Source of the DNA: an uncultured candidatus Porisulfidus sp.
GTDB lineage: Bacteria; Pseudomonadota; Gammaproteobacteria; Poriferisulfidales; Oxydemutatoraceae
Direction: 5' to 3'
NCBI GenBank assembly: GCA_965215765.1
Contig: OZ244118.1
Span: forward strand, 2,484,598 to 2,548,597
DNA: 64,000 nucleotides
In this document: positions 1-64,000 of the stretch, piece after piece
Numbering within the stretch: the stretch's first letter is position 1
Layout: each line of letters opens with the position of its first letter
Translations under genes and position numbers: made by a program
The notes under the pieces: model-generated
What the model saw: the letters and a program-made list of their open reading frames with translations, nothing else
What the model was told of the DNA's origin: nothing
Database searches by the model: none

Positions 1-3000
1 GATGCCACCCCCAGTGCAGCGTCAATCCACCTCTCGAATTCCAGTTTGCACGGACTGCATGCGGGGCAACGGGAACATCCGTAAGCGCCCGGAGCACGGG
101 CAGCATGCGGGAGTGCCCGAAATGCCAAATTTGCGTATCCCAATCCAGATACACGCCAGCTACCCTGCAAAGATTGACAGGCAATATCAAACACTTCATT
201 TGCTCTACAGTGCGCAAACCACTGCCCTGTACAGTGCCGTCATTCCCGCCTACGAGGCTGTCCCCGTCGCCCAGCTTGCTGGCATAGCTGCGGGCTATCG
301 TGCCACCGTTGACTCCGACCAGCCTGCCCGACAAATCAGTTCCTCCTACAGCACCAGTGCTATAGGCACTTCTGACCAAGCCGCTGTTTATTCCCGCCAG
401 TCCACCTGTCTGACTGCCTCCGGTCACTGCGCCTTGTGCATAACTGTTAGCGATGGTTCCCTTGTTTACTCCCGCCAGCCCACCTGCCTGACTGCCTCCG
501 GTCACTGCGCCTTGTGCATAACTGTTACCGATGGTTCCCTTGTTTACTCCCGCCAGCCCGCCTGCCTGACTGTCTCCGGTCACTGTGCCTTGTGCATAAC
601 TGTTACCGATGGTTCCCTTGTTTTCGCCGACCAGACCCCCAACTTGATCCTTCCCACTCACCGTGATTCCAGGACTACGGCCACTCACGATGCTGGCGTT
701 GCTTTCGTTCACGCCCACCAGACCGCCCACCTGACTGTCTCCGGTCACTGTGCCTTGTGCATAACTGTTACCGATGGTTCCCTTGTTTTCGCCGACCAGA
801 CCCCCGACCTGGTTCTTTCCACTCACACGTGAGTCCAAGACTACATGGCTACTCACGATGCTGGCGTTGCTTTCGTTCACACCCACCAGACCGCCTACCT
901 GACTGTCTCCGGACACTATGCTTTTTGCATAACTGTTACCGATGGTTCCCTTGTTTACGCCGACCAGACCCCCAACTTGATCCTTCCCGCTCACACGTGA
1001 TTCCAGGACTACATGGCCACTCACGATGCTATGGCTACTCACGATGCTGGCGTTGCTTTCGTTCACACCCACCAGACCGCCTACCTGACTGTCTCCGGAC
1101 ACTATGCTTTTTGCATAACTGTTACCGATGGTTCCCTTGTTTACGCCGACCAGACCCCCAACTTGATCCTTCCCACTCACACGTGCATATCTGGCTGTAT
1201 GGACATTCACGATCCTGGCTTCGTTCACACCCACCAAGCCCCCAACCCCGCGGGCTGCTCCGACAACATGGATCTGCGCGTGGTATTTTCTGTCATGGTT
1301 CTCCATGTAGCTGTCACTGATGGTGCCGCCAAGGTGCCAACCCACCAGACCACCCACGTACGCGTAGCCCCATATAGAGCCGGTCCCGGCCACATCTCCA
1401 TTCGCATGGCTGGAAGTGACCGAACCCCTGTTTTTGCCCACCAGACCTCCGACTTGATTGCTTCCTGTTACTCCCCCCGACGCATGACTGCCCACAATCG
1501 TGCCGCCGTCATTCTGACCTACCAGCCCACCGGCAACGGCAACCCATGTGCCGCTAGAGTTCTCCCCAACCCTTACCGCCGACGCGCTGTTGCGGATGAC
1601 ACCGCCCTGATTCAGGCCAACCAGCCCACCGATGGTTCTGTGCCCGTCAACCTTGCCATCAACCTCGCTGTCCTCAATCGTCCCTTGATTGTTCAGCCCA
1701 ACCAGAGAACCAACATTCACTCCGCCTTCCGTCAAAAAACCCACCAGCTTCACACGCTTCAGCAAGCCACCCTGCAGCGTACCAAACAGCCCTATATTCT
1801 CGAGTGCTTCGTCTGCTACGTTGACCTTCAAATTGGAAATCTTGTAACCGTTGCCATCATAAGTGCCAGAAAAATCCTTGATCGGTGCAAAACCGTTTTT
1901 CCAGCCATGCGTCATCGTCGTCGCGTCTATATCTTTGATTTGGATGTAGTGCGACTGGGGCGATGCATCCATGTCGCGCAAATGGCACAGGTTTTCTACC
2001 TGGTAGGGATCACTTTCAGTTCCGGAACCTGCCATGGCCTGCGAACTTGCAGCACACGCGAGCTCAGGATCCATATAGGGAAATTGGCTGTTGTTGTAAT
2101 AGGTGTCTCCGTAATTGAGAAGGTTGAAGGCTCTTTCGTTCGCATAAATCCCGCCCATTCCCCAACCGTATACCTCGCATGTTCCGAGTCCAGGGGCCGG
2201 CTGGGAAGTTTGAACCCCTATCACCAAGCCGGTCTTTTTATAAAACGCGGATGAGCCGGACGCTCCATGCGTAGGAGAGATGCCCTTATACGTTAAACTC
2301 AGGCGCCCGCACACTCCTTCGCAGAAAGACAGGATGTCTTTCTTGACGCCGCGCCGTACTCTTTCAAACTCACCCCACTGCTGAGGCCTGGTGCCAGCGT
2401 GGTGTACGGAGTAACCACTGAAATTATCGGCAGTGCGGGTCTCCCACCCCAACAATTTATAATCTCCGCTCTTGAACCCGACAAGTCGTCCAACAAGACG
2501 CACAATCCCCCAATCCGCACTATCACCACCAGCCACAAAGTATGCATCTGGTTTCTTTCCTGCCACGAACCTCACACCAAAGGCGTATGAACCACCAAGA
2601 GTAGTGACGAAGAATCGCAAAAACGGTTTGTCCACAGCGTTAGTGTCCACTTCAGGTAAAAGGTGAAGCGTTGTCAGAATGTAGGGAGCTCCGTCACCCG
2701 ACTTGTTCTTTATAAAACTCCCAGTCCCGCAGCCACCATCATCGTCAGAATGGCGGCACAATACTACGACACCTTTGGTTACATCCCGCACGTAAGCCGG
2801 GCTCTCGCTGTTTACATAGTTATTCTTACCGGGTAGACGCCAGGTGCCTGCGCGCACACAACTGCCGGCTTGCCCCAGAGGCGCCAGATTCCTGATTCCC
2901 TCCCCGTGTAAAACCCCGTTGTTATCCTTGAATGTGTGGCTCACTTTTTCGACCGAAAAAGGAAAATCGCCTGGCTCCAGGTGGTAACTGTCCGGAACCC

Positions 3001-3593
3001 AAAACTCTATGACAACGGTATCACCAGACACCGGGAACGCCACAAAGCTGCCATCATTACGTGACAAGCCGCGGCCCGTGTACTCTACGAGCCCTTCATT
3101 GCTGTCTCCGGCGGGGGCATAGACATTCACCGACATACCCGGGTCAAGGGGAAAACCAGAAAAATATAACCACAGCCGCAGGGCAGACGGAGAGCGAATC
3201 TGCGCCTGCCAGACATCAAGGCCGTCTTCCTGTTTGACCAGCGCCCAGTTGGAACGCCTTAACCGGACGTCCCGGGCAATGCTGGTGTAGTTGACCGTTG
3301 TCGCACGGAGCAGTACACGAATTTGCTCCTGTTCCCGGGTGCTGAAAGATCCCAAGTTCAGTTGCTGTGCGCGGTCAGGATACAGAGTTCGAGTGGCTTC
3401 CCGGGCATTCCTCCCCTCCGAAAAGGGATGGGACGCGAAGCCTTGTTCTGCCAGAGATTCCTGATCCTGGCCGAAAACGAGTGAGCTCGACGTGATGATA
3501 GATACACCCACGAACAGCCACTTCAGCCAACCATGGCTGCCGGAAATCTGCGTATCCGGAAATCTGAAATCTGCTTCTTTCATTGTGAATGCT
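1..3593 (-). CDS. Paralog A (3'-truncated by window edge): N-terminal ~1197 aa of a giant secreted S1-protease/GLUG-repeat/FN3 protein. Signal peptide MKEADFRFPDTQISGSHGWLKWLFVGVSIITSSSLVFG, then pro-region, protease domain and first GLUG block
   Basis: Manual reverse-complement translation from ATG (revcomp of cat at 3591-3593) runs open through at least ~1.9 kb checked by hand, with no stop found, and parallels paralog B residue by residue. It is not in the ORF track, probably because its stop lies beyond position 1. The leader upstream is identical to that of the other paralogs. Confidence 0.6.
300..1250 (-). repeat. Intragenic GLUG-motif coding repeat block 1 of paralog A (~78-81-bp units)
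   Basis: Periodic near-identical DNA units, seen as the repeating ADQTPNL/SGHCALCITVTDGSLV antisense pattern in plus ORF 2..832. Sense translation gives VGGLVGxNxGxIxNSYAxGxVxGDSQ units. Bounds are approximate. Confidence 0.45.
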
Positions 3594-3970
3594 TAGGAGC
3601 CATGCGGGCGGAGAAAAGAGAGCCTGACCACCCTGAGACATAAAATTCCCTGCACCGCATTCGCTATCTGTTCTCCATGGCTGCGCACTGAGCGATCCTC
3701 TGGCTCTGACCTTCACTCACTCTCTGATGTCCCAGTACGGCTGTACGCGGGCAGGATACAGAGTTCGAGTGGCTTCCCGGGCATTCCTCCCCTCCGAAAA
3801 GGGATGGGACGCGAAGCCTTGTTCTGCCAGAGATTCCTGATCCTGGCCGAAAACGAATGAACTCGACATGATGATGGGCACACCCACGAGCAGCCACTTC
3901 AGCCAACCATGGCTGCCGGAAATCTGCGTATCCGGAAATCTGAAATCTGCTTCTTTCATTGTGAATGCTT
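3594..3970 (-). repeat. One extra tandem copy of the ~377-bp 5' module (5'UTR + ATG + signal peptide + first ~70 codons) upstream of paralog A
   Basis: The sequence is nearly identical to the 5' end of gene A plus its leader. The junction motif ggctgtacgc|gggcaggatacag is present. Confidence 0.8.
3717..3959 (-). CDS. Upstream mini-ORF (80 aa) duplicating the signal peptide and N-terminus of the giant protein, ending ...LYPARVQPYWDIRE*
   Basis: ORF track entry MKEADFRFPDTQISGSHGWLKWLLVGVPIIMSSSFVFGQDQESLAEQGF... It has the same leader and start context as the real gene. The stop comes from leader sequence after the duplication junction. Confidence 0.35.
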   Translation of the reverse strand: MKEADFRFPDTQISGSHGWLKWLLVGVPIIMSSSFVFGQDQESLAEQGFASHPFSEGRNAREATRTLYPARVQPYWDIRE

Positions 3971-4149
3971 AGGAGCCATGCGGGCGGAGAAAAGAGAGCC
4001 TGACCACCCTGAGACATAAAATTCCCTGCACCACATTCGCTATCTGTTCTCCATGGCTGACGCACTGAGCGATCCTCTGGCTCTGACCTTCACTCACTCT
4101 CTGATGTCCCAGTACGGCTGTACGCGCCGAAAAATCACTTAGTTGGTTA

Positions 4150-4178
4150 ATTGTACAAAATAACGCCCAATCCGGCAA
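4150..4178 (-). promoter_or_regulatory. Sigma70-like promoter TTGCCG-N17-TACAAT for paralog A, preceded by an AT-rich UP-like tract
   Basis: Revcomp of 4150-4178 reads TTGCCGgattgggcgttattttgTACAAT. The same element with exact 17-nt spacing is conserved upstream of all five gene starts. It lies ~15 nt distal to the module junction, so there is a single promoter per gene. Confidence 0.45.
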
Positions 4179-4519: not shown

Positions 4520-5222
4520 GCCTTAAAAGAAATGCTCCTTGTGGAGAATTTCTTCTCCAGACACTCCTGATGCACTGCCTCAAGGAAAATACACCTCACT
4601 TCCCTGAACCGCATGGCATTCATCAGAAAACAAAATCTTTTCGTGTTTTTCGCGGTTATTAAACTCGTGATTTATAGTTCTCTCGCCAGTTGCCCGGGCT
4701 CTTCACCAAAGGAATGCCCCTTATGGAAAACTCCTTCTCCGGACGCTCCTGATGCACTGCCTCAAGGAAAATACACCTCACTTCCCTGAACCGCATGGCA
4801 TTCATCAGGAAATAAAAATTTTCGTATATTTCGCGGTTATTAAACTCATGGTTCATAGCTCTCTCGCCAGTTGCCCGGGCTCTTCACCAAAGGAATGCCC
4901 CTTATGGAAAACTCCTTCTCCGGACACTCCTGATGCACTGCCTCAAGGAAGATACACCTCACTTCCCTGAACCGCATGGCATTCATCAGAAAACAAAATC
5001 TTTTCGTGTTTTTCGCGGTTATTAAACTCGTGGTTCATAGCTCTCTCGCCAGTTGCCCGGGCTCTTCACCAAAGGAATGCCCCTTATGGAAAACTCCTTC
5101 TCCGGACACTCCTGGCGCACTGCCTCAAGAAAACCACAACCCCACTTCTCTGAACCGCATGGCATTCATCAGAAAACAAAATCTTTTCGTGTTTTTCGCG
5201 GTTATTAAACTCGTGTATGCCC
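4520..5222. repeat. Four tandem copies of a ~186-bp unit directly downstream of the paralog B stop codon
   Basis: Unit ...ctcctgatgcactgcctcaaggaaaatacacctcacttccctgaaccgcatggcattcatcagaaaacaaaatcttttcgtgtttttcgcggttattaaactcgtg... repeats with ~183-186-bp period. The most distal copy is degenerate. The unit begins ~20 nt after the stop. Confidence 0.8.
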
Positions 5223-8200
5223 TCAGCGAATCATGCCGCCCAGGAATACCCTCAGGCGCAATTTCTTGACGTGATGCGGGCCCGGCCTCGGCGTTGTCGG
5301 GATCTCGGGATCCCAGTTGATAAATTGACTCACTCCTGGCAGCTCAGCCACGCTGTCCAGGGGGAATGCCCGGACTTCGTACGCGACACCACCCTGCAGC
5401 CCCGTAAATTCCGTCCTGACGGCTCCCCCGGGTGTCGGCATCGCAACAGACTGTTCCTCTATCAGTTCCCCGTATGAAAGCAGTTGTACCCGATACCCCA
5501 AGCCGAGCAATATTCCATCAACCGGGGCTCCGAAATCAGCATGATCCGCAGTGCGTCCGTAGCCATCATTTCCCGAATATTGCAAGTGTACCTGCACACG
5601 ACCATTCGCCTTGTGCATCAGCTGCATGGCCAATGTTCCCTCAAGAACGTCGAGCAAGGTAAATGCTGCAGTGCTCATCGCGCCCGTTCCGGCACGGTTG
5701 ACTGCCCGGAGCGAATAGCGTATCTGCTCTCCTCCTGCGTGCTTCTTGCGCAGCTGCGCCAGGACATGGCCTGACAACACATAAGAAGTGGCGGTTCCCG
5801 AGACGGGGTGGCTTTTTCCGTCCACAAAAAGCTGGTAGCTGTCTATCATCGCCCCGTTGCTGCTCGCCGCTTCCCAACTCAGGTTCACCTGATCTACGGA
5901 CTTCCACCTGGCTCGCAAGCCCGAAGGTCTGCCAGGCACCGCTATGGTGCTGAACGCGCTCCTGTTTTCGGATGCCTGGGCAGGCTCCCCGGTGCCCGCC
6001 CGGTTGCGCGCATAGACCTGTAACGAATAGCTTCTCTTCGGCAGCAAGTCGGTGATCTCAATCTCGGCGTCAAAAGCACCTGCCGAGAAAAAGGTCTCGG
6101 TGCTGCGTCCTCCAGCACTCACAACCACCACGTAGCCAAAACCGGAGCCTGCAACGCGATCAGAAGAAGACGCAAGCGCATCACCCGCCAGGGGAGCGCA
6201 ATCGTCATGTCCCATGACCATCAACACCAGGCGCGCAGTGGTTTGGCCGGGCACCAGATCCGTTATCGTCGTCGCGCCCGGAAGACCGGGCAAATAGAAG
6301 TGACCGGCTGCCGGATAACCAGCGATATCTCCGCGCACAGCGCGAAGACGGTACGGGTGGGGGCAAGCCCCCTGTCTGTTTTTCCGAAACTCAGCCAGAA
6401 AATCTCCGTTGAAGTCAAAAGTCGGTGCTGTGACTTCCCGTATTGTTCCTGCCAGCTCAAGTTCGTAGGAATCAACCGCTGAACTTCCCGCCGCCCACGT
6501 GAAGCGCAAATGATCCGGAGATTCCCAGCTCACCGCCAAATCAACCGGTGTGGCAGGAATGTCAGCAATCGCGCGCAGCAAGGGTAACGTACGGGTATTG
6601 CCAAAATGCCAGACTTCCGGTTCCCAGCCGGCATAGGTCGTGGCATCTGCGCATCTCTGCCCCACAGCAGTCGGGCAACGCAACTGGGTCAGAGTGCGAG
6701 GTGAACTGCCGCCCGACGAGCCATTGCCCACCAAAGCTGCCTGTGCAGACACGGGTGCGTAACTGCGATCAATCACCGCATCCGGAGCAGAATAACCCGC
6801 CAGACTCCCGGTGCTGCCCGATTCCCCAACAACCCTGTTCGCTGCATAGCTGTCCTGTATGCGGCGGATATTGTTTCCGACCAGTCCCCCGATGGAGAAA
6901 TGACCCCGCACCTCACCGAGTGCATAGCTCGCATGGACAGAACCGGAGTTGATGCCCACCAGTCCGCCAATACGGCTATCTCCGCTGACCGACACGTCGG
7001 CATAGCTGTAGGCAATGGTGCTTCCGCTGTAGCCGACCAGACCGCCGGCGCGCGAGCCGTCCACAGCGATGGCCGAACCTGTCGCGTAACAGTGCAAAAT
7101 CGTGCTTCCCTGGCTATAGCCAACCAGACCGCCAGCATTGTCCCGCCCTTCACCCGAGACGCGCACCGCCGCATCGGCACTGCTGTACAAAATAGTGGCT
7201 CCCAGAGCCAGTCCGGCCAGACCACCGGCAGACTCAAGCGCGCGTACTTGCGAAGCCCTCACCGTGCTGCCCACGACCCGACCTTTTGCCTTCACATAAC
7301 CGACCAGACCGCCGACGTACCTGCCCCCGTCAACCTCGGCACTGGCACCACTGTCAATCAGCAAACCCCCGTTGCCACCCGCCAGCCCGCCAATGTTGGC
7401 TCCAGCTCTGCTGCCGGAAACCTGTGCAGACCTCACGACACTGTTCATGACGGTTCCGTCGTTAAAGCCGACCAAGGCTCCGACGCTGTTTTTTCCTTTT
7501 ACCCACGCATCAAGGAGCACCACTCCCTTGGCGATCCCGTCTTCTGCGAGTCTGGAAAACAGGCCAACCGTATCCGTCTCCGGGCGGTTAATGTGCAGAG
7601 CAGAGATTTGCCGCCCTGCCCCGTCGAAAGCGCCTGAAAAAGGCTCTATCGGATGAAAGCCGGCACCGCCTGACCACCCCCGACTCGGGCTGGCGTCAAT
7701 GTTTGCCACCTGCACATAGTGAGCGTACAGATCAGAGCGCACATCCTGCAGTTGGCACAGCGTGGCAATTTGCCACGGGTTGTTGTTGCTGCCGTCACCC
7801 GATGCACTCTTCAGGCCTTTGCCGACGCATCCCGGAAAGCTGGTCACCGCACGGATCGTTGACGGCGATCCGGTGCCCACCGTGTTATGGGCGAAGGCTT
7901 CCAGCCGATATGCAAAGGCACTCTCAAGCCCCGTAAATTCCATCGTGACCGGGCTCAGAGGATTCCCCAGCGGAATGTCGCGTTCTTCAACCAGCTCCCC
8001 GGACGCATACAGACGTATCCGGTAAGCCAGGTGCAAAGCCATGGCTTCCGCTGACGTTGCGTAATCAGCGTCAACCGGCCTGCGGCCATAGCCATCATTG
8101 GCAGGGGCTGTAAAGCTGAGTCTCAGCGTGGAGACCCCCTGCTCCACGCGCATATCAGCCGGAGAATCAGGAACATCCAGCAGGCGCACGGAAACACGGG

Positions 8201-40656: not shown

Positions 40657-40790
40657 TGTGAATGCTTAGGAGCCATGCGGACGGAGAAAAGAGAGCCTGA
40701 CCACCCTGAGACATAAAATTCCCTGCACCACATTCGCTATCTGTTCTCCATGGCTGACGCACTGAGCGTTCCTCTGGCTCTGACCTTCAC

Positions 40791-52691: not shown

Positions 52692-52934
52692 TCACTCTCT
52701 GATGTCCCAGCACGGCTGTGCGCGGGCAGGATACAGAGTTCGAGTGGCTTCCCGGGCATTCCTCCCCTCCGAAAAGGGATGGGACGCATAGCCTTGTTCT
52801 GCCAGAGATTCCTGATCCTGACCGAAAACGAGTGAGCTTGACGTGATGATGGATACACCCACGAGCAGCCACTTCCGCCAACCATGACTGCCGGAAATCT
52901 GCGCATCCGGAAATCTGAAATCTGCTTTTTTCAT
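52692..52934 (-). CDS. Upstream mini-ORF (80 aa)
   Basis: MKKADFRFPDAQISGSHGWRKWLLVGVSIITSSSLVFGQDQ... Confidence 0.35.
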   Translation of the reverse strand: MKKADFRFPDAQISGSHGWRKWLLVGVSIITSSSLVFGQDQESLAEQGYASHPFSEGRNAREATRTLYPARAQPCWDIRE

Positions 52935-53068
52935 TGTGAATGCTTAGGAGCCATGCGGGCGGAGAAAAGAGAGCCTGACCACCCTGAGACATAAAATTCC
53001 CTGCACCACATTCGCTATCTGTTCTCCATGGCTGACGCACTGAGCGATCCTCTGGCTCTGACCTTCAC

Positions 53069-53311
53069 TCACTCTCTGATGTCCCAGTACGGCTGCGCGC
53101 GGGCAGGATACAGAGTTCGAGTGGCTTCCCGGGCATTCCTCCCCTCCGAAAAAGGATGGGACGCAAAGCCTTGTTCCGCCAGAGATTCCTGATCCTGGCC
53201 GAACAAGGGTGAGCTTGACGTAATGATGGATACACCCACGAGCAGCCACTTTAGCCAGGCATGGCTGCCGGAAATCTGCGCATCCGGAAATCTGAAATTT
53301 GCTTTTTTCAT
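53069..53311 (-). CDS. Upstream mini-ORF (80 aa)
   Basis: MKKANFRFPDAQISGSHAWLKWLLVGVSIITSSSPLFGQDQ... Confidence 0.35.
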   Translation of the reverse strand: MKKANFRFPDAQISGSHAWLKWLLVGVSIITSSSPLFGQDQESLAEQGFASHPFSEGRNAREATRTLYPARAQPYWDIRE

Positions 53312-53445
53312 TGTGAATGCTTAGGAGCCATGCGGACGGAGAAAAGAGAGCCTGACCACCCTGAAACATAAAATTCCCTGCGCCACATTCGCTATCTGTT
53401 CTCCATGGCTGACGCACTGAGCGATCCTCTGGCTCTGACCTTCAC

Positions 53446-53691
53446 TCACTCTCTGATGTCCCAGCACGGCTGTGCGCGGGCAAGATACTGAGTTCGAGTG
53501 GCTTCCCGTGCATTCCTCCCCTCCGAAAAGGGATGGGACGCGAAGCCTTGTTCTGCCAGAGATTCCTGATCCTGGCCGAAAACGAATGAACTCGACGTGA
53601 TGATGGATACACCCACCACGAGCAAGTACTTCAGCCAGACACGGCTGCCGGAAATCTGCGCATCCGGAAATCTGAAATCTGCTTTTTTCAT
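53446..53691 (-). CDS. Upstream mini-ORF (81 aa)
   Basis: MKKADFRFPDAQISGSRVWLKYLLVVGVSIITSSSFVFGQDQ... Confidence 0.35.
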   Translation of the reverse strand: MKKADFRFPDAQISGSRVWLKYLLVVGVSIITSSSFVFGQDQESLAEQGFASHPFSEGRNAREATRTQYLARAQPCWDIRE

Positions 53692-53882
53692 TGTGAATGC
53701 TTAGGAGCCATGCGGGCGGAGAAAAGAGAGCCTGACCACCCTGAGACATAAAATTCCCTGCACCACATTCGCTATCTGTTCTCCATGGCTGACGCGCTGA
53801 GCAATCCCCTGACTCTGACCTTCACTCACTCTCTGATGTCCCAGCACGGCTGTACGTGCCTGGAAATCACTTAGTGGGGTCA

Positions 53883-53911
53883 ATTATATAAAATAGCACC
53901 CAATCCGGCAA
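53883..53911 (-). promoter_or_regulatory. Sigma70-like promoter TTGCCG-N17-TATAAT for paralog E
   Basis: attata at 53883-53888 and cggcaa at 53906-53911. The spacer is 17 nt. Confidence 0.45.
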
Positions 53912-57400: not shown

Positions 57401-60400
57401 CACCATAAAGGTTGTAGCCACGAACCATTAAAAAGAGCGTACTTCCGCCTTCATGACTGGCGCGCAGCTTCTGCAACCAGTCTGATCCTCCGACGTAGTA
57501 CAACGATGCGGTTTCCTCAGCAGCGATCGATGGAGCCTCAATCCGGTAAGCGATCAGTTCTCTGGTGTGAAGCGGGGGCTCCCAACGCAGCAACAAGGAA
57601 GACGGAGATTTCCACTGTGCCAGCAGGCGCAAGGGTTTGCCAGGAGTCTCAAAGCCTCGCAGAACCGGCAGCGTCCTGTAATCGCCAAAGGACCAGATCT
57701 CGGCACTCCAGCCTGAGTATGTTGACCTTCCCGCACATGCCAGGCCAGGGGCGGTGGGGCAACGCAGTTGCTGCAGCGTCCGCAAGGAGCCTGATCCCTG
57801 CCCGGTGTCATTTGCCACAAAAGGCATACCGCCACCATTGGCGCCATTGCCGCGAGGCAACGCTGCCGCGTAGCTGTCGGTGATGCCTCCCGGACTGCTG
57901 CCGGCAAAACTTCCAGACCGTCCTGCTCCGGACACCGACCCTGCCGCATAGCTGCGACTGACGGTGCCCTGATTGTCCGCCACAAGACCCGCGACCAGAC
58001 CTTCCCCGGTCACAAAAGCTGTTGTGTAACTGTCAGTCACCGAGCCCTGGTTGTCTGCGACCAGACCACCCGCCCGAACTGCTCCTGACACCGAGCCTCC
58101 GGCGTAGCTTGTATCAATACTCCCGGTTACCAGATTTCTTCCGACCAGGCCTCCTGCAACCTGACCTCCCGGCTCTGTCGTCAGCTGTGCCGCGCTGCCG
58201 CTGATCATGCCTGCGTTGACGCCAACAAGTCCTCCCGCCACTTGCCCGCCAAAAAGTGAGCCCGTCACCCCGCTGTTCACGATCCTTCCTCCCTCATTCC
58301 TGCCCACCAGAGCACCCACGTTGGCACTTCCCCAAAGCTGCGCGTTCACCAGCACGACCTGCTGCAATAACCCGCCCCGAAGCTGCGCAAACATGCCGAC
58401 ATCTTCCAGCGCCTCAGAGCGCACCCTTAAATGGAAAATCTGATGACCGGCACCGTCAAGGGAACCGGAAAAATCAGCGATCGGCGCAAAACCTTCTCCG
58501 GCTCGCCAGTCCCGGGATGGACCTGCCTCAATATCGCTTGCCAGCCGGTAGTGGGCTACAGGTGCAGAGCGAATGTCCTGCAATTGGCACAGCGTGGCAA
58601 TCTGCCAGGGATCGTCCTCGCTGCCCGAGCCGCCTGCCGACGCCAGGGTTTCCCCGTCGCACTGCCAAGGAAGGGTAAATGCCGGCAGGAAAAATGGCGG
58701 TCCTTCTCCAGCCCTGTTATAGGGCGTCGCCACCACTTCATAGCGGCTATCGCTTGCCAGACCCGAAAACTCCACAGCCACGGATGTTTCGCCGTCTGTG
58801 TGCGCAAGCTCCTGTTCCTGCATCAGTTCTCCCCCGGTGTACAGCCGTACCCGGTAACCCAGACCTGCGGAAACCCCGACACTCGTATAACCGTAAGCCG
58901 GGTCTTCCGGTGATTGGCCGTAGCCGTCGTCAGCAGGAGCCATAAGCGACACACGCAGTGAAAACGCTTGCGCCGATGCCCAAACGACTGCCAATTTGCC
59001 AGGGGCTCTCAGCAGCTTGATCGCAACCGTTGTCGCTTCGCTCATGCCGTGACGGTTATATCCACGTACGCTGACTTGCAAGGTACTGCCCCTATATTCA
59101 GAACGGAGGCTTTGCACCAGGCGCCTGCCGAAGGTAAAAGATGCGGACTCCGTTTCCAGGGAACGCCCTGCCACCTCCAGCCAATAGCCGGCGTTCAGGC
59201 TTTCTGTTCTCGCGGCTGTCCAGTTCAGTTCCAGTTCACCTTCCTGGTTCCATCTTGCCTGCAGGCGTGAAGGGGGAGCAGGTGGCACTGCTCGCAGGGC
59301 GCGATGAAGCGGAAGCGTCTGCCTGTCCCCGAAATACCAGTCCTGTGTGCTCCAGTCGGAGTAGCTGACTGCTCCCTGGCATGTATCTCCCGGCAAAAGA
59401 GGGCACTGTAATTGCGCCAGCGTGCGGGAAAAATTGTTTTCTGTGGTGTCATCTCCCCTGCTGCCCACGAGTTCCAGCGCGCTGCTGCCGGCACTCGGCT
59501 CCAGGGCGTAATTCGCAACCATATCGGTATCTTCGGAATGCCCCACCAGCATGCCCGCCTGATTGTTTCCGCTAACCAGACCAGTCGCATAACTGTCCTT
59601 AATCCTGATGCTATAGCTCGTGTTGCTTTCACTGTTCCCCGCCAGGCCGCCCACCCGCTCATTTCCGCTGACCGATCCGGTTGCGTAGCTTCCCCCGAGC
59701 CAGGATCTATTGTGTCCCACCAGGCCGCCCACCCGCTCATTTCCGCTGACCACTCCGGTCGCATGGCTTCCGTAGATTGACCCAAAGCTGAGGCCCACCA
59801 GCCCGCCCACACCATTCCCCGCGCCGATAACCGTGCTGTCCGAGTAGCTGTAAATTATGGAATTGTAATCACCGTGCTGACCCACCAGTCCACCCACATT
59901 TCCCGTTCCGCTGACCACTCCCGCTGAATAAGAGCCGAATATAAAGCCAACGTTATAACCCGCCAGCCCGCCCACAGAATGATGCCCGCTCACCGTTGAC
60001 TGCGCTTGGCTGTGGTAGATAGGAGCTTGATTGAGCCCTACCAGTCCACCAACATTGTCTGCTCCGCTCACACTTCCTCTCGCGTGCGAACTGCGTATCC
60101 TCGCGCCCCAGAAGTTTTTGCCCACAAGTCCGCCTATTGTGTTGCCGTGCCCCTGGAAATCAACCGTTCCGGCAACGGTAGACTCCGAATGGCTGAGCTT
60201 GATCAAGCCATGGTTCTCACCTGCCACTCCGCCCACATTTGTCCGTCCGCCTATCAACCCCGTCACAGTGCTGAGCTTGATGCTTCCATTTGTCGCAATG
60301 CTTCCTGCCAGGGCTCCTGTCGCATCTCTGCCCCGCACCGTGACATTCACCAGCGCCAGCCTTTGCAGGGCACCACCGCTGAGCCTCCCGAACAGCCCGA

Positions 60401-63400
60401 CATGGTCTGTTTGCCCAGGGTTGATCAAAAGATTCAGAACACTGTGACCACTCCCGTCCAGAGAGCCGGAAAAAGATTCAATCGGTGGAAAGCCCTTTCC
60501 GTCTCGCCACTCGTGGCTTTGCTTCGCGTCTATGTCGTTTGCCAACCGATAATGCGCTGCCGTGTCGTAACGTATTTCCTGCAACTGGCAAAGTGTGCCG
60601 ACCTGCCAGGGGTCATCCTCGCTGCCAGAGCCCGCTGCCGTTATCACCGCTGCCCATGGACACGCACCAACGTAGGTAAAAACCGGCACTGCCTCCGTTG
60701 GGCTTGCGCCCACTTTGTTTCTGGCAAACACTCTGACTTCGTACCTGGAACTATCTTTCAGACCTGAAAATTCCACTACGGCCGAACTTGACCATTCCTG
60801 TTGTGTCTTATGCCGATCTTCTTTCAACAGGCCTTTTGAAAACAGTTGCACGTGATATACGAGATCCAGAGCAATTCCGCCTGCCGACTCCCCGTACGCG
60901 TTGCTGCCCGAAACGCGTCCGTAGCCGTCATCAGCTGCCCCGACAATGGTGACCCGTATTGTCGACAGCCCTGAAGCTACCTGGGCCACCACCGCCCCCG
61001 GAACTTTCATCAAATGGAAACTTCCCGACGCTGCATCTCCCGCAACGCCCCCTTTTACGCCGCGTATGGAATAATGAATTTCACTGCCGCTGGCGTGATG
61101 CTCACGTAATTCAGCCATTAATGAGCCGCCAAGCGCGAAACGGGGTTCCTCGGTGTCTCGAATGATTCCGTCCATCTCAAGCTCATAGAAATTCACGGCA
61201 ACTCCTTGATGCTCCCACTGCAGCGTCAACCCACCTCTCGAATTCCAGTTTGCCCGGACTGCAAGCGGTGCAGCGGGAACATTCGTAAGCACCCGGAGCA
61301 CGGGCAGCATGCGGGAGTGCCCGAAATGCCAAATTCGCGTATCCCAATCCAGATACACTCTGGCTGCCCGGCAAAGATTGACGGGATCCATCGAACACTT
61401 CATTTGTTCCACAGTGCGCAAAGCGCTGCCCTGTACAGTGCCGTCATTCCCGCCCACGAGGCTGTCCACGTCACCCAGCTTGCTGGCATAGCTGCGAGCT
61501 ATCGTGCCACTGTTGACCCCGACCAGTCTGCCCGGCAAATCAGTTCCGCTTACAGCACCAGTGCTATAGGCACTTCTGACCGTACCGCTGTTTTCGCCGA
61601 CCAGACCGCCTGTCTGACTGTCTCCGGTCACTGAACCTCGTGCGTAGCTGTTACTGATGGTTCCTTTGTTTTCGCCGACCAGACCCCCAACTTGATCCTT
61701 CCCTCTCACACGTACTTCTTGACGTGTATGGCTACTCACGATCTTGGCGTTACTCTCGCTCACACCCACCAGACCGCCTGTCTGACTGTCTCCGGTCACT
61801 GCGCCTTGTGCGTAGCTGTCACTGATGCTTCCCATGTTTTTGCCGACCAGACCGCCGACTTGATCCTTCCCTCTCACACGTACTTCCTGGCGTGTATGGC
61901 TACTCACGATCCTGGCGTTGCTTTCGTTCACACCCACCAAGCCCCCAACCCCAGGGGCGGTTCCGACAACCTGATTACGCGCGTAACTGCCACTGATGGT
62001 GCCGCCAAGGTGTAAACCCACCAGACCACCCACCTGACTGTCTCCGGTCACTGCACCTTGTGCGTAGCTGTTGCTGATGCTTCCTTTGTTTTCGCCGACC
62101 AGACCGCCGACTTGATCCTTCCCACTCACACGTACTTCCTGACGTGTATGGCTATTCACGATCCTGGCGTTGCCCTCGTTCACACCCACCAAGCCTCCAA
62201 CCCCGGGGGCTGTTCCGACAACCTGGTTAAGCGCGTAACTGTCACTGATGGTGCCGCCAAGGTGCAAACCCACCAGACCGCCCACCTGACCGTCTCCGGT
62301 CACTGCGCCTTGTGCGTAGCTGTCACTGATGCTTCCTTTGTTTTCGCCGACCAGACCGCCGACTTGATCCTTCCCACGCACATGTACTTCCTGACGTGTA
62401 TGGCTGTTCACAATCCTGGCGTAGCCCCAGCTCACACCCACCAGACCACCCACCTGACTGTCTCCGGTCACTGGACCTTGTGCGTAGCTGTCACTTATGC
62501 TTCCCCTGTTTTCGCCGACAAGACCGCCGACCTGATTCTTTCCACGTACTTGCCCAAGTGTATGGCTACTCACGATCCTGGCGTTGCCCTCGCTCACACC
62601 CACCAGACCACCCACCTGACTGTTTCCGGTCACTGCGCCTTTTGCGTAGCTGTCGCTGATGCTTCCCCTGTTTTCGCCGACCAGACCGCCGACCTTGTTC
62701 TTTCCACTCGCACGTGATCCCAAATCTGTATAGCTATTCACGATCCTGGCGTTGCTCTCGCTCACACCCACCAAGCCCCCAATCCCGAGGGCTGCTCCGA
62801 CAACCTTGTTCTCCGTGTGGCTGCCACTGATGGTGCCGCCAAGGTGCCAACCCACCAGACCACCCACGTAGCCCCTCCCTGAGGTGCCGGTTCCGGTCAC
62901 ATCTCCAGTCGCATGGCTGGAAGTGACTGAACCCCTGTTTTTGCCCACCAGACCTCCGACTTGATTGCCTCCTGTTACTGCCCCAGACGCATGACTGCCT
63001 GCAATCGTGCCACCGTCATTCTGACCCACCAGACCGCCGGCAACCCATGTGACGCTAGAGTTCTCCCCAACCCTTACCGTTGACGTGCTGTTGCGGATGA
63101 CACCGCCCTGATTCAGGCCAACCAGCCCACCGATGGTTCTGTACCCGTCAACCTTGCCATCAACCTCGCTGTCCTCAATCGTTCCCCGATTGTTCAGCCC
63201 AACCAGAGAACCGACATTCACTCCGTTTTCCGTCAAAAAACCCACCAGCTTCACGCGCTTCAGCAAGCCACCCTGCAGCTCGCCAAACAGCCCTATATTC
63301 TCGAGTGCTTCGTCTGCTACGTTGACCTTCAAATTGGAAATCTTGTAACCGTTGCCATCATAAGTGCCAGAAAAACCCTTGATCGGTGCAAAACCGTTTT

Positions 63401-64000
63401 TCCAGCCATGCGTCATCGTCGTTGCGTCTATATCTTTGATCTGGATGTAGTGCGACTCGGGCGATGTTTCCATGTCGCGCAAGTGGCACAGGTTTTCTAC
63501 CTGGTAGGGATCACTTTCAGTTCCGGAACCTGCCATGGCTTGCGAACCTGCAGTACACGCGAGCTCGGGATCCATATAGGGGAATTGGCTGTTGTTGTAA
63601 TAGGTGTCTCCGTAATTGAGAATGTTGAAGGCTCTTTCGTCTGCATAAATCCCACCCATTCCATAATAGGTTGAAGTGCACGCATCACTCGGCGACATGG
63701 CACTATCAACCCCTATAATCAAGCCGGTTTTTTTATAAAATGCGGATGAGCCGGACGATCCAAACGTAGGAGAGATGCCCTTATACGTTAAATGCATACA
63801 CCCGCAAATCACCCCTTCACAGAAAGGTGAGGTGCCTTTCTTGCCTCCGAAGAGCCAGCAGATTCCACCGCTCTCGATCGCCACACTTACAAACTCAGCC
63901 AACTGCTGAGGCTTGGAGCCGGCGTGGTGTACGGTGTAACCACTGAAGGTATCGGTAGTGTGAGTCATCCACTCCAGCAATTTATAATCTCCAGATCCGG
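54411..64000 (-). CDS. Paralog F (5'-truncated by window edge): C-terminal ~3195 aa of a giant secreted S1-protease/GLUG/FN3 protein
   Basis: The ORF runs open to the window end. The track starts it at internal Met 63980, inside the protease domain. The C-terminus ...KKLRLRVFLGGMIR is identical to the other copies. Confidence 0.85.
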   Translation of the reverse strand, partial: GSGDYKLLEWMTHTTDTFSGYTVHHAGSKPQQLAEFVSVAIESGGICWLFGGKKGTSPFCEGVICGCMHLTYKGISPTFGSSGSSAFYKKTGLIIGVDSAMSPSDACTSTYYGMGGIYADERAFNILNYGDTYYNNSQFPYMDPELACTAGSQAMAGSGTESDPYQVENLCHLRDMETSPESHYIQIKDIDATTMTHGWKNGFAPIKGFSGTYDGNGYKISNLKVNVADEALENIGLFGELQGGLLKRVKLVGFLTENGVNVGSLVGLNNRGTIEDSEVDGKVDGYRTIGGLVGLNQGGVIRNSTSTVRVGENSSVTWVAGGLVGQNDGGTIAGSHASGAVTGGNQVGGLVGKNRGSVTSSHATGDVTGTGTSGRGYVGGLVGWHLGGTISGSHTENKVVGAALGIGGLVGVSESNARIVNSYTDLGSRASGKNKVGGLVGENRGSISDSYAKGAVTGNSQVGGLVGVSEGNARIVSSHTLGQVRGKNQVGGLVGENRGSISDSYAQGPVTGDSQVGGLVGVSWGYARIVNSHTRQEVHVRGKDQVGGLVGENKGSISDSYAQGAVTGDGQVGGLVGLHLGGTISDSYALNQVVGTAPGVGGLVGVNEGNARIVNSHTRQEVRVSGKDQVGGLVGENKGSISNSYAQGAVTGDSQVGGLVGLHLGGTISGSYARNQVVGTAPGVGGLVGVNESNARIVSSHTRQEVRVRGKDQVGGLVGKNMGSISDSYAQGAVTGDSQTGGLVGVSESNAKIVSSHTRQEVRVRGKDQVGGLVGENKGTISNSYARGSVTGDSQTGGLVGENSGTVRSAYSTGAVSGTDLPGRLVGVNSGTIARSYASKLGDVDSLVGGNDGTVQGSALRTVEQMKCSMDPVNLCRAARVYLDWDTRIWHFGHSRMLPVLRVLTNVPAAPLAVRANWNSRGGLTLQWEHQGVAVNFYELEMDGIIRDTEEPRFALGGSLMAELREHHASGSEIHYSIRGVKGGVAGDAASGSFHLMKVPGAVVAQVASGLSTIRVTIVGAADDGYGRVSGSNAYGESAGGIALDLVYHVQLFSKGLLKEDRHKTQQEWSSSAVVEFSGLKDSSRYEVRVFARNKVGASPTEAVPVFTYVGACPWAAVITAAGSGSEDDPWQVGTLCQLQEIRYDTAAHYRLANDIDAKQSHEWRDGKGFPPIESFSGSLDGSGHSVLNLLINPGQTDHVGLFGRLSGGALQRLALVNVTVRGRDATGALAGSIATNGSIKLSTVTGLIGGRTNVGGVAGENHGLIKLSHSESTVAGTVDFQGHGNTIGGLVGKNFWGARIRSSHARGSVSGADNVGGLVGLNQAPIYHSQAQSTVSGHHSVGGLAGYNVGFIFGSYSAGVVSGTGNVGGLVGQHGDYNSIIYSYSDSTVIGAGNGVGGLVGLSFGSIYGSHATGVVSGNERVGGLVGHNRSWLGGSYATGSVSGNERVGGLAGNSESNTSYSIRIKDSYATGLVSGNNQAGMLVGHSEDTDMVANYALEPSAGSSALELVGSRGDDTTENNFSRTLAQLQCPLLPGDTCQGAVSYSDWSTQDWYFGDRQTLPLHRALRAVPPAPPSRLQARWNQEGELELNWTAARTESLNAGYWLEVAGRSLETESASFTFGRRLVQSLRSEYRGSTLQVSVRGYNRHGMSEATTVAIKLLRAPGKLAVVWASAQAFSLRVSLMAPADDGYGQSPEDPAYGYTSVGVSAGLGYRVRLYTGGELMQEQELAHTDGETSVAVEFSGLASDSRYEVVATPYNRAGEGPPFFLPAFTLPWQCDGETLASAGGSGSEDDPWQIATLCQLQDIRSAPVAHYRLASDIEAGPSRDWRAGEGFAPIADFSGSLDGAGHQIFHLRVRSEALEDVGMFAQLRGGLLQQVVLVNAQLWGSANVGALVGRNEGGRIVNSGVTGSLFGGQVAGGLVGVNAGMISGSAAQLTTEPGGQVAGGLVGRNLVTGSIDTSYAGGSVSGAVRAGGLVADNQGSVTDSYTTAFVTGEGLVAGLVADNQGTVSRSYAAGSVSGAGRSGSFAGSSPGGITDSYAAALPRGNGANGGGMPFVANDTGQGSGSLRTLQQLRCPTAPGLACAGRSTYSGWSAEIWSFGDYRTLPVLRGFETPGKPLRLLAQWKSPSSLLLRWEPPLHTRELIAYRIEAPSIAAEETASLYYVGGSDWLQKLRASHEGGSTLFLMVRGYNLYGVGEAARVSVRLLDVPDSLTDVRVVPGVSTLRLSFTAPANDGYGRKPVDADYAASAEAMALRLAYRIRLYASGELVEERGIPLGNPLSPVTMEFTELKSVFAYRLEAFAHNTVGTGSPSTIRAVTSFPGCAGKGLKSASGDGSGDNPWQIATLCQLQDMRSDLHAHYVQVANIDASPSRGWSDGTGFHPIEPFSGTFDGAGRQISALHINRPETDTIGLFSKLAEDGVVKGVVLVDAWVKGGNSVGALVGFNYGTVMNSVVRSAQISGGRAGANIGGLAGGNGGLLVDSGASAEVDGGRYVGGLVGYVKAKGRVVGSTVRASQVRALESAGGLAGLALGAAILHSSADAAVRVSGEARDNAGGLVGYSLGSTILHCYATGSAIAVDGSRVGGLVGYSGSTIAYSYADVSVNGADRVGGLVGFNAGSVHASYALGEVRGHFSIGGLVGSNIRRIQDSYAVNSVDGESGSTGSLAGYSAPDAVIDRSYAPVSAQAALVGNGSTDGSLPRTLAQLRCPTAAGQRCAGATTYAGWEPGAWHFGNTRTLPLLRALADIPAAPVDLAVSWESPDHLRFTWAAGSPAVDSYELELAGTIREVTAPTFDFNGDFLAEFRKNRQGACPHPYRLRAVRGDIAGYPAAGHFYLPGLPGATTITDLVPGQTTARLVLAIMGRDDCAPLAGDALASSSDRVAASGFGYVVVVSAAGRSTETFFSAGAFDTEIEITDLLPKRSYSLQVYARNRAGAGEPAQASENRSAFSTIAVPGRPSGLRARWKSADRVNLSWEAASSNGATIDSYQLSVDGKSHPVVGTGTSYVLSGHVLVQLRKKHTGGEQIRYSLRAVNRAGTGAMSTAAFTLLDVLEGTLAMQLMHKANGRVQVHLQYSGNDGYGRTADHADFGAPVDGILLGLGYRVQLISYGELIEEQSVAMPTPGGAVRTEFTGLQGGVAYEVRAFPRDSVAELPGVSQFINWDPEIPTTPRPGPHHVKKLRLRVFLGGMIR
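61500..62750 (-). repeat. Intragenic GLUG-motif repeat block 1 of paralog F
   Basis: Periodic coding repeats. Bounds are approximate. Confidence 0.45.

What the first reader, a model, noticed from the sequence alone, without database searches (positions are those of the whole stretch)
1..64000. Tandem array of at least six 10-kb paralogous giant genes occupies the entire 64-kb window
Six co-oriented genes of 10.2-10.7 kb each have near-identical 5' and 3' ends and conserved intergenic architecture. Each has its own promoter. The array extends beyond both window edges. This is the layout of a contingency or antigenic-variation-type multigene family, not a housekeeping locus. A tandem family of 3400-3600-aa proteins has, to my knowledge, not been described.
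Basis: seen in the sequence. Interest (0 to 1): 0.8.

Follow-up and report, generated by a model that had tools for sequence, protein, structure and literature searches.

The report
Tandem array of giant secreted proteins
The whole 64-kb window is a real head-to-tail array of six closely related 10-kb genes for giant secreted proteins (a protease-like head on a long beta-helix/FN3 stalk), which swap sequence among themselves; similar giant-gene clusters are already known from another bacterial symbiont, so this is a new example with some unusual details, not a new kind of locus.

Summary
Four complete genes (3392-3571 aa) and two cut by the window edges lie co-oriented on the minus strand. All have open frames, 77-88% protein identity, and their own conserved sigma-70-like promoter.

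Each protein has a Sec-type signal peptide, a divergent trypsin-like serine-protease head with an intact H/D/S triad, four GLUG beta-helix modules resembling the IgA1-protease N-terminal domain but lacking HExxH, and FN3 domains.

The paralogs are mosaics made by gene conversion. Divergence is concentrated in the protease head (dN/dS 0.7-0.9, against about 0.3 in the stalk). In relatives the head occurs as two types only about 35% identical, on stalks that are 81-89% identical in DNA.

Related arrays occur in a Candidatus Oxydemutatoraceae MAG and in one long-read metagenome, so an assembly artefact is excluded.

Classical contingency features are absent: no short repeats, invertible promoters or silent copies.

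Downstream of each promoter lie 0-5 extra tandem 377-bp cassettes, each a leader plus the first 71 codons, giving intact 80-aa signal-peptide mini-ORFs. A relative has 305-bp cassettes with different boundaries.

The closest precedent in layout is the Giant1-5 cluster of Apilactobacillus kunkeei. I rate this a new variant of a known kind, of moderate interest.

The parts
1..3583 (-). G1: 5' part (first 1194 codons) of a giant gene. ATG at 3583; the 3' end lies beyond the left window edge.
5223..15401 (-). G2: complete giant gene, 3392 aa. Domain map in window coordinates: signal peptide 15285-15401; beta-rich pre-domain ~14697-15104; trypsin-like head ~13962-14594; GLUG/FN3 modules 1-4 at 11430-13874, 9450-11429, 7815-9449 and 6102-7814; C-terminal FN3 region and basic tail 5226-6101.
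16310..26659 (-). G3: complete giant gene, 3449 aa.
28490..39142 (-). G4: complete giant gene, 3550 aa.
41843..52558 (-). G5: complete giant gene, 3571 aa. Its head domain gives the only direct Pfam Trypsin_2 hit.
54411..64000 (-). G6: 3' 9.6 kb of a giant gene (3195 codons seen). It is open to the right window edge, and the 5' end lies outside the window.
4150..4178 (-). Sigma-70-like promoter motif of G1 (TTGCCG-17 nt-TACAAT).
15591..15619 (-). Sigma-70-like promoter motif of G2.
27962..27990 (-). Sigma-70-like promoter motif of G3 (TTGCCG-17 nt-TATAAT).
   Evidence: read by eye
41317..41345 (-). Sigma-70-like promoter motif of G4.
53883..53911 (-). Sigma-70-like promoter motif of G5 (-10 = TATAAT).
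3584..4126 (-). Leader of G1 with one extra 377-bp cassette (mini-ORF ATG at 3959, 80 aa).
15402..15590 (-). Leader of G2: a single ~190-nt leader with no extra cassette. It is the minimal form of the architecture.
26660..27935 (-). Leader of G3 with three extra cassettes (mini-ORF ATGs at 27039, 27390 and 27770; 81 aa each).
39143..41300 (-). Leader of G4 with five extra cassettes (mini-ORF ATGs at 39522, 39902, 40279, 40656 and 41126; 80-81 aa). The 41126 mini-ORF is 111 aa because of a 90-bp internal duplication.
52559..53853 (-). Leader of G5 with three extra cassettes (mini-ORF ATGs at 52934, 53311 and 53691).
41488..41637 (-). Remnant of a PDDEXK_3 (GxxExxY-type) gene, C-terminal 50 codons. 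Equivalent remnants lie at 4321-4470, 15762-15911, 28167-28285 and 54088-54206.
4526..5215 (-). 182-bp tandem repeat (3.8 copies) just downstream of the G2 stop. The unit is the degraded 5' part of the PDDEXK_3 remnant; the other intergenic regions hold 1-2 copies.

Best explanation
The window is part of a lineage-specific tandem multigene family in a gammaproteobacterium related to Candidatus Oxydemutatoraceae, a family that includes a sponge symbiont. Each gene encodes a giant Sec-exported protein. It has an N-terminal signal peptide, a beta-rich pre-domain, a divergent trypsin-like serine-protease 'head', four GLUG right-handed beta-helix modules each followed by FN3-type domains, and a C-terminal FN3 region ending in a conserved basic tail. 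I read these as long extracellular or cell-surface fibres that present a protease head at the distal (N-terminal) end. Their likely targets are host matrix, particles or other cells. The family evolves by tandem duplication and frequent segmental gene conversion, which keeps the leader, signal peptide and stalk similar. The protease head diversifies, so each paralog carries a different head on a near-common stalk. Each gene is probably transcribed from its own sigma-70-type promoter through a highly conserved ~190-nt leader. In four of the five gene starts seen, this leader plus the first 71 codons has been tandemly amplified (1-5 extra 377-bp cassettes), producing signal-peptide mini-ORFs upstream of the real gene. 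Shown: the anatomy, the homologies, the mosaicism, the divergence pattern and the occurrence in relatives. Inferred: export, extracellular location, protease activity, promoter use and any role of the cassettes.
For: Array and open frames.

Domains: GLUG scores 174-267 bits and fn3 89-92 bits, with a weak Peptidase_M26_N match. There are four modules per protein. The AF2 model of module 3 has a beta-helix at pLDDT ~97. Its best PDB matches are BACOVA_03286 'putative IgA1 protease' (E 1.7e-7) and the S. pneumoniae and G. haemolysans IgA1 proteases (E 2e-5 to 9e-5).

Head: Trypsin_2 scores 26.5 bits (E 1.2e-5) for G5. The motifs around His (TxFHLF), Asp (DWxIVR) and Ser (GASGS) are conserved. 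An exhaustive profile search found 690 relatives, and sampled distant ones pass the Pfam Trypsin/Trypsin_2 cut-offs.

Export: the only hydrophobic segment is at residues ~18-38.

Mosaicism: the nearest paralog changes along the gene, with segments up to 99.1% identical. Shared-run permutation tests give p<=0.001 in 8 of 10 pairs.

Selection: whole-gene dN/dS is 0.39-0.63. The head is at 0.7-0.9 with dN up to 0.3, and the stalk at 0.25-0.45. Heads of two types are ~35% identical, while the stalks are 81-89% identical in DNA.

Promoter and leader conservation in relatives.

Cassettes; in relatives.

Related arrays.

Taxon and habitat lead.
Against: No expression, localisation or activity data exist.

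The AF2 model of the head was poor (pLDDT 34). The direct Pfam hit is just below the gathering score and is seen for only one paralog. PDB sequence searches found no protease. The protease assignment therefore rests on transitive homology and motifs.

No recognised outer-membrane secretion or anchoring signal was found for a Gram-negative cell. There is no autotransporter barrel, RTX/T1SS, T9SS or sortase-type signal in Pfam or NCBIfam. How the protein leaves the periplasm is unknown.

dN/dS below 1 in the head does not prove positive selection; relaxed constraint would look similar.

The host or habitat of the window's own genome is not known. The sponge link comes only from the family name of the nearest MAG and one paper.
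Confidence: 0.7

Rival explanations
1. Contingency or antigenic-variation locus in the strict sense. Only one or a few paralogs would be expressed at a time. Switching would occur by recombination between the conserved 5' blocks (leader and signal-peptide cassettes) and the conserved stalk, or by changes in cassette copy number, giving population heterogeneity in the exposed head.
For: A hypervariable head is flanked by conserved 5' and 3' sequence. Gene-conversion tracts are significant. Long tandem cassettes differ in number between paralogs (0, 1, 3, 3, 5) and between related contigs. Cassettes arose with different boundaries in a relative.
Against: Every copy has the same putative promoter and an open frame, so there are no silent donors. 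There are no short repeats or homopolymers. The one intergenic region scanned has no inverted repeats bracketing the promoter, and the window encodes no recombinase. Whole-gene dN/dS of 0.4-0.6 implies that all copies are maintained as functional genes. The adaptive immune pressure that drives classical antigenic variation is not expected in an invertebrate host (general knowledge).
Confidence: 0.15
2. A battery of secreted digestive or matrix-remodelling proteases. The paralogs would be retained for different substrate specificities (subfunctionalisation) and for dosage. The GLUG and FN3 parts would act as substrate- or surface-binding spacers, and there would be no variation or evasion role.
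For: The catalytic triad is conserved in all heads seen. Divergence and indels are concentrated in the head. Related head domains occur on quite different C-terminal parts, such as PPC, Calx-beta, Big_9 and T9SS tails, as is usual for secreted proteases. All copies are intact.
Against: A stalk of about 2,900 residues is far more than a secreted enzyme needs. The extreme size with repeated beta-helix/FN3 modules is more typical of surface fibres and adhesins (general knowledge; compare PMC12863079). This rival overlaps with the best explanation and differs mainly in emphasis.
Confidence: 0.12
3. Assembly artefact: one or two real genes were wrongly expanded into a tandem array by misassembly of repeats or by mixing strains.
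For: Highly repetitive loci are error-prone in metagenome assemblies. The relatives come from low-coverage long-read contigs (2x-18x).
Against: The copies differ by 8-16% in DNA with many indels, and each has a distinct head. Every junction has different cassette numbers. Independent contigs, and a complete 1.92-Mb MAG chromosome of another species, show consecutive giant genes of the same family. All frames are open over 10 kb, which chimeric joins would rarely preserve.
Confidence: 0.02

Closest known systems
Giant1-5 gene cluster of Apilactobacillus kunkeei (honeybee symbiont; Tamarit et al. 2015; Pedersen et al. 2026, PMC12863079)
   Same: Five to six consecutive co-oriented genes encode 3,000-8,000-aa extracellular proteins in a small symbiont genome. 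[quoted passage not shown] Diversification occurs by short intragenic recombination. The layout and evolutionary mode match this window.
   Different: That organism is a Gram-positive Firmicute, with an SRRP-like beta-solenoid and no protease head. Its Giants differ much more from one another in length. Here six paralogs share one architecture at 77-88% identity, in a Gram-negative gammaproteobacterium, with a trypsin-like head, GLUG helices and FN3 domains. The leader/signal-peptide cassette arrays are not mentioned in the abstract or introduction I read; I did not read the rest of that paper. Sequence homology between the two families was not tested.
GLUG-motif proteins and the N-terminal beta-helix domain of M26 IgA1 proteases (S. 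pneumoniae ZmpA/IgA1P, PDB 6XJA/6XJB; BACOVA_03286, PDB 3N6Z)
   Same: There are strong Pfam GLUG matches and a weak Peptidase_M26_N match. The predicted beta-helix of a module superposes on these structures. NCBIfam gives a weak ZmpA match to the same region.
   Different: There is no M26 zinc-protease domain and no HExxH anywhere. The catalytic candidate is an unrelated serine-protease domain at the N-terminus. There are four helix modules per protein rather than one.
Tandem multigene families of variable surface proteins evolving by gene conversion (for example Chlamydia pmp, Anaplasma msp2/p44, Ehrlichia p28/omp-1; cited from general knowledge and the review PMC4534519 listed, which I did not read)
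   Same: Both have clustered paralogs, conserved flanks around a hypervariable exposed region, and segmental gene conversion.
   Different: Those proteins are about 10 times smaller. Many of those systems use one expression site plus silent pseudogene donors. Here every copy is complete with its own putative promoter.
Repeat-number 'rheostat' promoters and leaders (for example the 7-bp repeats upstream of Haemophilus influenzae hmw1A/hmw2A; general knowledge)
   Same: A tandem repeat lies between the promoter and the start codon of a large surface-protein gene, and its copy number differs between paralogs.
   Different: The units here are 377 bp (305 bp in a relative), not a few bases, and each carries a translatable signal-peptide mini-ORF. 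No effect on expression has been shown.

Membership tests
GLUG-motif beta-helix proteins (Pfam PF07581) | Multiple GLUG motifs scoring above the Pfam gathering score | tested here: met
   174 bits (G2) and 266.8 bits (G4) against a cut-off of 20.5. There are 29-35 GGL[VA]G motifs per protein.
GLUG-motif beta-helix proteins (Pfam PF07581) | Right-handed beta-helix fold like the IgA1-protease N-terminal domain | tested here: met
   The AF2 model has pLDDT ~97 over residues 1-250 of module 3. Foldseek finds 3n6z at E 1.7e-7 and 6xjb/6xja at E 2e-5.
M26 IgA1-specific metalloendopeptidases (ZmpA/B/C) | Zinc-binding HExxH catalytic domain (Peptidase_M26_C) | tested here: not met
   None of the six proteins has an HExxH motif. 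There is no Peptidase_M26_C hit. NCBIfam ZmpA scores 24 bits against a cut-off of 3000.
Trypsin-like serine peptidases (clan PA, Pfam Trypsin/Trypsin_2) | Sequence match to the family model | tested here: inconclusive
   Only G5 matches, at 26.5 bits against a cut-off of 27.6, and G2 and G4 give nothing. However, a profile of the head finds 690 relatives. Of ten sampled, at least five pass the Trypsin or Trypsin_2 cut-offs over the aligned region.
Trypsin-like serine peptidases (clan PA, Pfam Trypsin/Trypsin_2) | Catalytic His, Asp and Ser in the canonical order | tested here: met
   The motifs TxFHLF, DWxIVR and GASGS are conserved in all heads and in the relatives P0001-P0003 where the region is present. 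Assigning these residues as catalytic is an inference.
Trypsin-like serine peptidases (clan PA, Pfam Trypsin/Trypsin_2) | Double beta-barrel chymotrypsin fold | tested here: inconclusive
   The AF2 model built from a shallow alignment reached only pLDDT 34, so no fold search was run.
Contingency (phase-variable) loci | Short sequence repeat or homopolymer in the promoter or 5' coding region | tested here: not met
   The only tract in 64 kb is a G7 at 10084, deep inside G2.
Contingency (phase-variable) loci | Invertible promoter flanked by inverted repeats, with a site-specific recombinase | tested here: not met
   The inverted repeats found in the G3-G2 intergenic region belong to the PDDEXK_3 remnant and do not bracket the promoter; only this one region was scanned. 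No other genes lie in the window. A recombinase elsewhere in the genome cannot be excluded.
Expression-site/silent-cassette antigenic variation systems (msp2, vlsE, pilE/pilS type) | Truncated, promoterless donor copies feeding one expression site | tested here: not met
   All copies are full-length open frames with the same promoter motif. The 5' cassettes are upstream duplicates, not donors of variable sequence.
Expression-site/silent-cassette antigenic variation systems (msp2, vlsE, pilE/pilS type) | Segmental gene conversion creating mosaics around a hypervariable region | tested here: met
Tandem giant extracellular-protein gene clusters (Apilactobacillus kunkeei type) | Several consecutive co-oriented genes of at least 3,000 codons with signal peptide, beta-solenoid and repeated stalk | tested here: met
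   the description of the A. kunkeei cluster is.
Tandem giant extracellular-protein gene clusters (Apilactobacillus kunkeei type) | Sequence homology to Giant1-5 | not tested
The different domain composition makes common descent unlikely.
Polymorphic toxins (CdiA, Rhs, MafB) | Variable C-terminal toxin domain followed by a cognate immunity gene | tested here: not met
   The C-terminus is the most conserved part (89-94% identity). The downstream DNA holds only a degraded PDDEXK_3 remnant.
RTX/T1SS giant adhesins and autotransporters | RTX repeats with a C-terminal T1SS signal, or a C-terminal beta-barrel translocator | tested here: not met
   Pfam and NCBIfam give no such domains. The protein has an N-terminal Sec-type signal peptide instead.

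The most novel reading that the evidence does not exclude
The tandem 377-bp leader-plus-signal-peptide cassettes (305 bp with different boundaries in a relative) may not be neutral debris. They could be a selected, recombination-labile control device for giant secreted-protein genes. Copy number would set how many copies of the ultra-conserved leader element and how many signal-peptide mini-ORFs precede each paralog. This could tune expression paralog by paralog, or bring the very long mRNA to the membrane before the 10-kb ORF is translated. Together with head swapping on a common stalk, this would be a previously undescribed way of running a giant-gene family.
Probability: 0.15. Interest if true: 0.75.

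Novelty: new variant of a known kind. Interest (0 to 1): 0.5.

Why it matters
Giant genes are costly. Here at least 64 kb, about 2% of a ~3.0-Mb chromosome, is spent on six near-copies, and related genomes keep similar arrays. That argues for an important, probably host- or environment-facing function in a poorly known symbiont-related lineage.

The family is a clean natural example of conserved stalk with a diversifying protease head, and of concerted evolution over 10-kb units.

It also adds a Gram-negative counterpart to the only described case I found, Apilactobacillus kunkeei. This suggests that tandem giant-gene clusters may recur in small-genome symbionts.

The repeated leader/signal-peptide cassettes, and a leader that is more conserved than synonymous sites, are unexplained. 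They can be tested with existing long-read and transcript data.

Tried and rejected
- **Source contig not retrieved.** An exact look-up of G2 and of a window mini-ORF in the gene-position index found nothing. The cluster look-up showed that the 111-aa mini-ORF P0141 sits on a 2,997,607-bp NCBI/ENA contig, with no accession given.
- **Head structure not obtained.** AF2 on the head with an 8-sequence alignment gave pLDDT 34, so it was not used for a fold search. PDB sequence searches with the head, alone and as a profile, gave only chance-level hits.
- **No RNA element found in the leader.** Rfam found nothing in the window. RNAalifold gave a weak consensus with a positive covariation term. The single-sequence fold had z = +0.48. 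The leader's conservation is therefore not explained by a stable RNA structure.
- **Leader uORF not universal.** A 25-28-codon uORF has a GGAGAA Shine-Dalgarno sequence and a stop overlapping the main ATG. It is present in most window copies and in L004 and L006, fused in frame in L005 and L007, and absent in G5, L010 and L011. It is recorded only as a lead.
- **Sigma-54 promoter rejected.** By eye, the GG/GC spacing near the start codon is wrong for a sigma-54 promoter.
- **Cassettes as separate promoters rejected.** The conserved -35/-10 motif lies upstream of the first cassette and is not part of the repeat unit.
- **Defence system rejected.** PADLOC gave no hits.
- **Plus-strand ORFs rejected.** The long ORFs of 398-413 aa at 1013-2254, 11661-12857 and 12870-14087 lie antisense to GLUG repeats and recur at equivalent places, so I treat them as spurious.
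- **Literature.** Searches on GLUG, giant genes and Oxydemutatoraceae found no description of this family.
Full report
**1. Observation**

All large ORFs lie on the minus strand.
- Four are complete: G2 5223-15401 (3392 aa), G3 16310-26659 (3449 aa), G4 28490-39142 (3550 aa) and G5 41843-52558 (3571 aa).
- G1 starts at ATG 3583 and runs off the left edge. G6 ends at 54411 and is open, in frame, to the right edge.
- None has an internal stop.

Self-BLASTN shows 6-11-kb alignments at 88-92% identity between units. Protein identity is 77-88%. The window has no tRNAs and no Rfam matches.

**2. The proteins**

Pfam finds many GLUG motifs (174-267 bits), fn3 domains, and a weak Peptidase_M26_N match. 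Motif mapping gives four modules per protein. Each starts with DPYQV...FSGxxDGxG, continues with GLUG repeats, and ends with a Cys-containing linker and FN3-type domains.

An AF2 model of module 3 of G2 has a beta-helix at pLDDT ~97 over its first ~250 residues. Its only significant PDB matches are BACOVA_03286 (3n6z, E 1.7e-7) and the beta-helix of the streptococcal and Gemella IgA1 proteases (E 2e-5 to 9e-5). The M26 catalytic domain is absent, and there is no HExxH motif in any copy.

The N-terminal ~520 residues have very few close relatives: four in 5.8 billion proteins by word search. An exhaustive profile search found 690 relatives, 32 of them at E<=1e-30. Sampled distant ones are trypsin-like peptidases that pass the Pfam cut-offs over the aligned region. 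G5 itself scores 26.5 bits on Trypsin_2. The His, Asp and Ser motifs are conserved in all copies. My AF2 model of the head failed (pLDDT 34), so the fold is inferred, not shown.

The only hydrophobic stretch is an N-terminal signal-peptide-like segment. The C-terminus is a conserved basic tail, HHVKKLRLRxFLGGMxR, with no recognised sorting signal.

**3. Evolution of the paralogs**

Sliding-window comparison shows that the nearest paralog changes along the gene:
- G4-G5 reach 99.1% at alignment codons 1201-1350.
- G3-G4 reach 98.7% at 1501-1650.
- G2-G3 reach 96.8% at 2551-2700, where G4 drops to 82%.

A GENECONV-style permutation of variable sites gives p<=0.001 for 8 of 10 pairs.

Whole-gene dN/dS is 0.39-0.63, so all copies are under purifying selection. 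The head (alignment 201-500) reaches 0.7-0.9 with dN up to 0.3 and many indels. Most of the stalk is at 0.25-0.45.

Adding relatives, the head falls into two types:
- Type A: the window's G1-G5 (the G6 head lies outside the window), plus L001, L004, L009 and L010.
- Type B: L002, L005-L007 and both L011 genes.

The two types are only ~35% identical in protein, while the stalks of the same genes are 81-89% identical in DNA. The family therefore consists of variable heads on a shared stalk.

**4. Intergenic architecture**

The five intergenic regions share one plan. From upstream stop to next start, it contains:
- 1-4 copies of a ~182-bp unit.
- A degraded PDDEXK_3 (GxxExxY) gene remnant (Pfam E 8.6e-9; coordinates).
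- An AT-rich stretch with TTGCCG-17 nt-TA(C/T)AAT.
- A ~190-nt leader.

The promoter-like motif and the leader are conserved in homologous loci of other genomes, even where the head is <40% identical. This supports 'one promoter per gene', as a prediction.

The unit is the last ~165 nt of the leader plus the first 71 codons. The extra copies number 0 (G2), 1 (G1), 3 (G3), 5 (G4) and 3 (G5).

Every extra copy keeps an intact mini-ORF of 80-81 aa, consisting of the signal peptide plus ~40 residues. One is 111 aa because of a 90-bp internal duplication. Because the -35/-10 motif lies outside the unit, the cassettes sit inside the presumed transcript.

Among cassettes, pN/pS is 0.49, against 0.57 for the real gene starts. 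Synonymous divergence is 0.17, whereas the non-coding leader part differs by only 0.036. The leader is thus the most conserved sequence in the window. This is not explained by RNA structure.

Related contigs show three states:
- 376-bp cassettes x5 in L009.
- 305-bp cassettes x4.9 with different boundaries and 102-aa mini-ORFs in L001.
- None in L011 or the Oxydemutatoraceae MAG.

Different boundaries imply at least two independent origins. That points either to a mutational hotspot or to selection.

**5. Relatives and source**

The 111-aa mini-ORF is identical to a database protein on a 2,997,607-bp NCBI/ENA contig, presumably the source chromosome.

The nearest genome in the species-representative collection is a MAG labelled Candidatus Oxydemutatoraceae (OZ243039.1, 1.92 Mb; Gammaproteobacteria). 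At least six family members were seen in it. Two of its loci hold two co-oriented giants each, and some are interrupted.

Contigs of one long-read metagenome (ERZ25071281) carry arrays of at least three giants. One array edge there abuts housekeeping genes.

The only searchable paper naming the genus places Oxydemutator thiolithooxidans among the dominant symbionts of the sponge Stylissa (PMC11685487). A sponge-symbiont lifestyle for the window's organism is a lead, not a finding.

**6. Interpretation**

The evidence fits a family of giant exported fibres carrying a diversifying protease head. The family is maintained by duplication and gene conversion.

It does not fit a classical contingency locus, a silent-cassette system, a polymorphic toxin, an RTX/autotransporter adhesin or a defence system.

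**7. Comparison with what is known**

A tandem cluster of 5-6 genes for 3,000-8,000-aa extracellular proteins is established in Apilactobacillus kunkeei. Those proteins have a signal peptide, an N-proximal beta-solenoid, a repeated stalk and a conserved C-terminus. The cluster makes up 6% of a 1.5-Mb symbiont genome and diversifies by intragenic recombination (PMC12863079).

The present array is the same kind of object in a different phylum, with a different domain set. It has unusually uniform paralogs, a protease head and the cassette arrays. I therefore rate it a new variant of a known kind, of moderate interest. The cassette and leader observations are the parts most worth following up.

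Noticed in passing
window 3584-4126, 26660-27935, 39143-41300, 52559-53853 (minus strand): The gene's own 5' end is tandemly amplified as a 377-bp unit (about 165 nt of leader plus the first 71 codons), with 1, 3, 5 and 3 extra copies; G2 has none. All 12 extra mini-ORFs are intact: eleven of 80-81 aa and one of 111 aa. The cassettes fall into two signal-peptide subtypes (GSHGWLKW... and GSRVWLKYLLVV...), and upstream of G4 they form a two-unit higher-order repeat.
   Followed up: yes
window 15402-15590 and the equivalent leader in every unit; L004-L007, L010, L011 at ~9800-10000: The ~160-190-nt leader is the most conserved sequence in the window. Its p-distance is 0.036-0.066, against synonymous divergence of 0.09-0.17 in the adjacent codons. 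It stays ~80-85% identical in relatives whose head domain is <40% identical. No Rfam hit, covariation or unusual folding energy explains this.
   Followed up: partly
window ~15405-15478 (minus strand) and equivalents; L004-L007: A possible 25-28-codon leader ORF is preceded by GGAGAA, and its TGA overlaps the main ATG (ATGA), which suggests translational coupling. It is fused in frame to the main ORF in L005 and L007, and lost in G5, L010 and L011.
   Followed up: partly
window 4321-4470, 15762-15911, 28167-28285, 41488-41637, 54088-54206; 182-bp repeats at 4526-5215: Every intergenic region carries a degraded PDDEXK_3 (GxxExxY) gene. Its 5' part has itself become a 179-225-bp tandem repeat (3.8 copies after G2; also present in L009 and L011). 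20-nt inverted repeats join its two ends. The ancestral duplicated unit was apparently giant gene plus this small gene.
   Followed up: partly
window 40885-41062: A 90-bp internal duplication in the promoter-proximal cassette of G4 doubles the hydrophobic core of the signal peptide, giving a 111-aa mini-ORF. This exact protein (P0141) is in the public protein collection on a 2,997,607-bp contig.
   Followed up: yes
L002, L005, L006, L007, L011 (type B) versus the window, L001, L004, L009, L010 (type A): There are two deeply divergent head-domain types, ~35% identical to each other, on otherwise similar genes. The Oxydemutatoraceae MAG has both types. All five heads visible in the window are type A.
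   Followed up: yes
L004 (9962-20469), L006 (13-9629 and 9962-19257): In the related MAG OZ243039.1 several giant genes are split into two ORFs, for example 1405+1796 aa and 1494+1588 aa. These are either pseudogenes or sequencing frameshifts. By contrast, all six window copies are open.
   Followed up: no
window 1013-2254, 11661-12857, 12870-14087 (plus strand): ORFs of 398-413 aa lie antisense to the first GLUG region of G1 and G2. Shorter ones recur at the equivalent places in the other copies. They are most likely by-products of the repetitive G-rich codons, not genes.
   Followed up: partly
last 17 codons of each gene, e.g. window 5226-5276: The C-terminal tail HHVKKLRLR(A/V)FLGGM(I/V)R is conserved in all copies. 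It matches no sorting signal that I recognise. The route across the outer membrane is unknown.
   Followed up: no
window 10084: This is the only homopolymer of 7 or more bases in the window (G7 on the plus strand), and it lies inside the G2 coding sequence. The equivalent position in the other copies was not checked.
   Followed up: no
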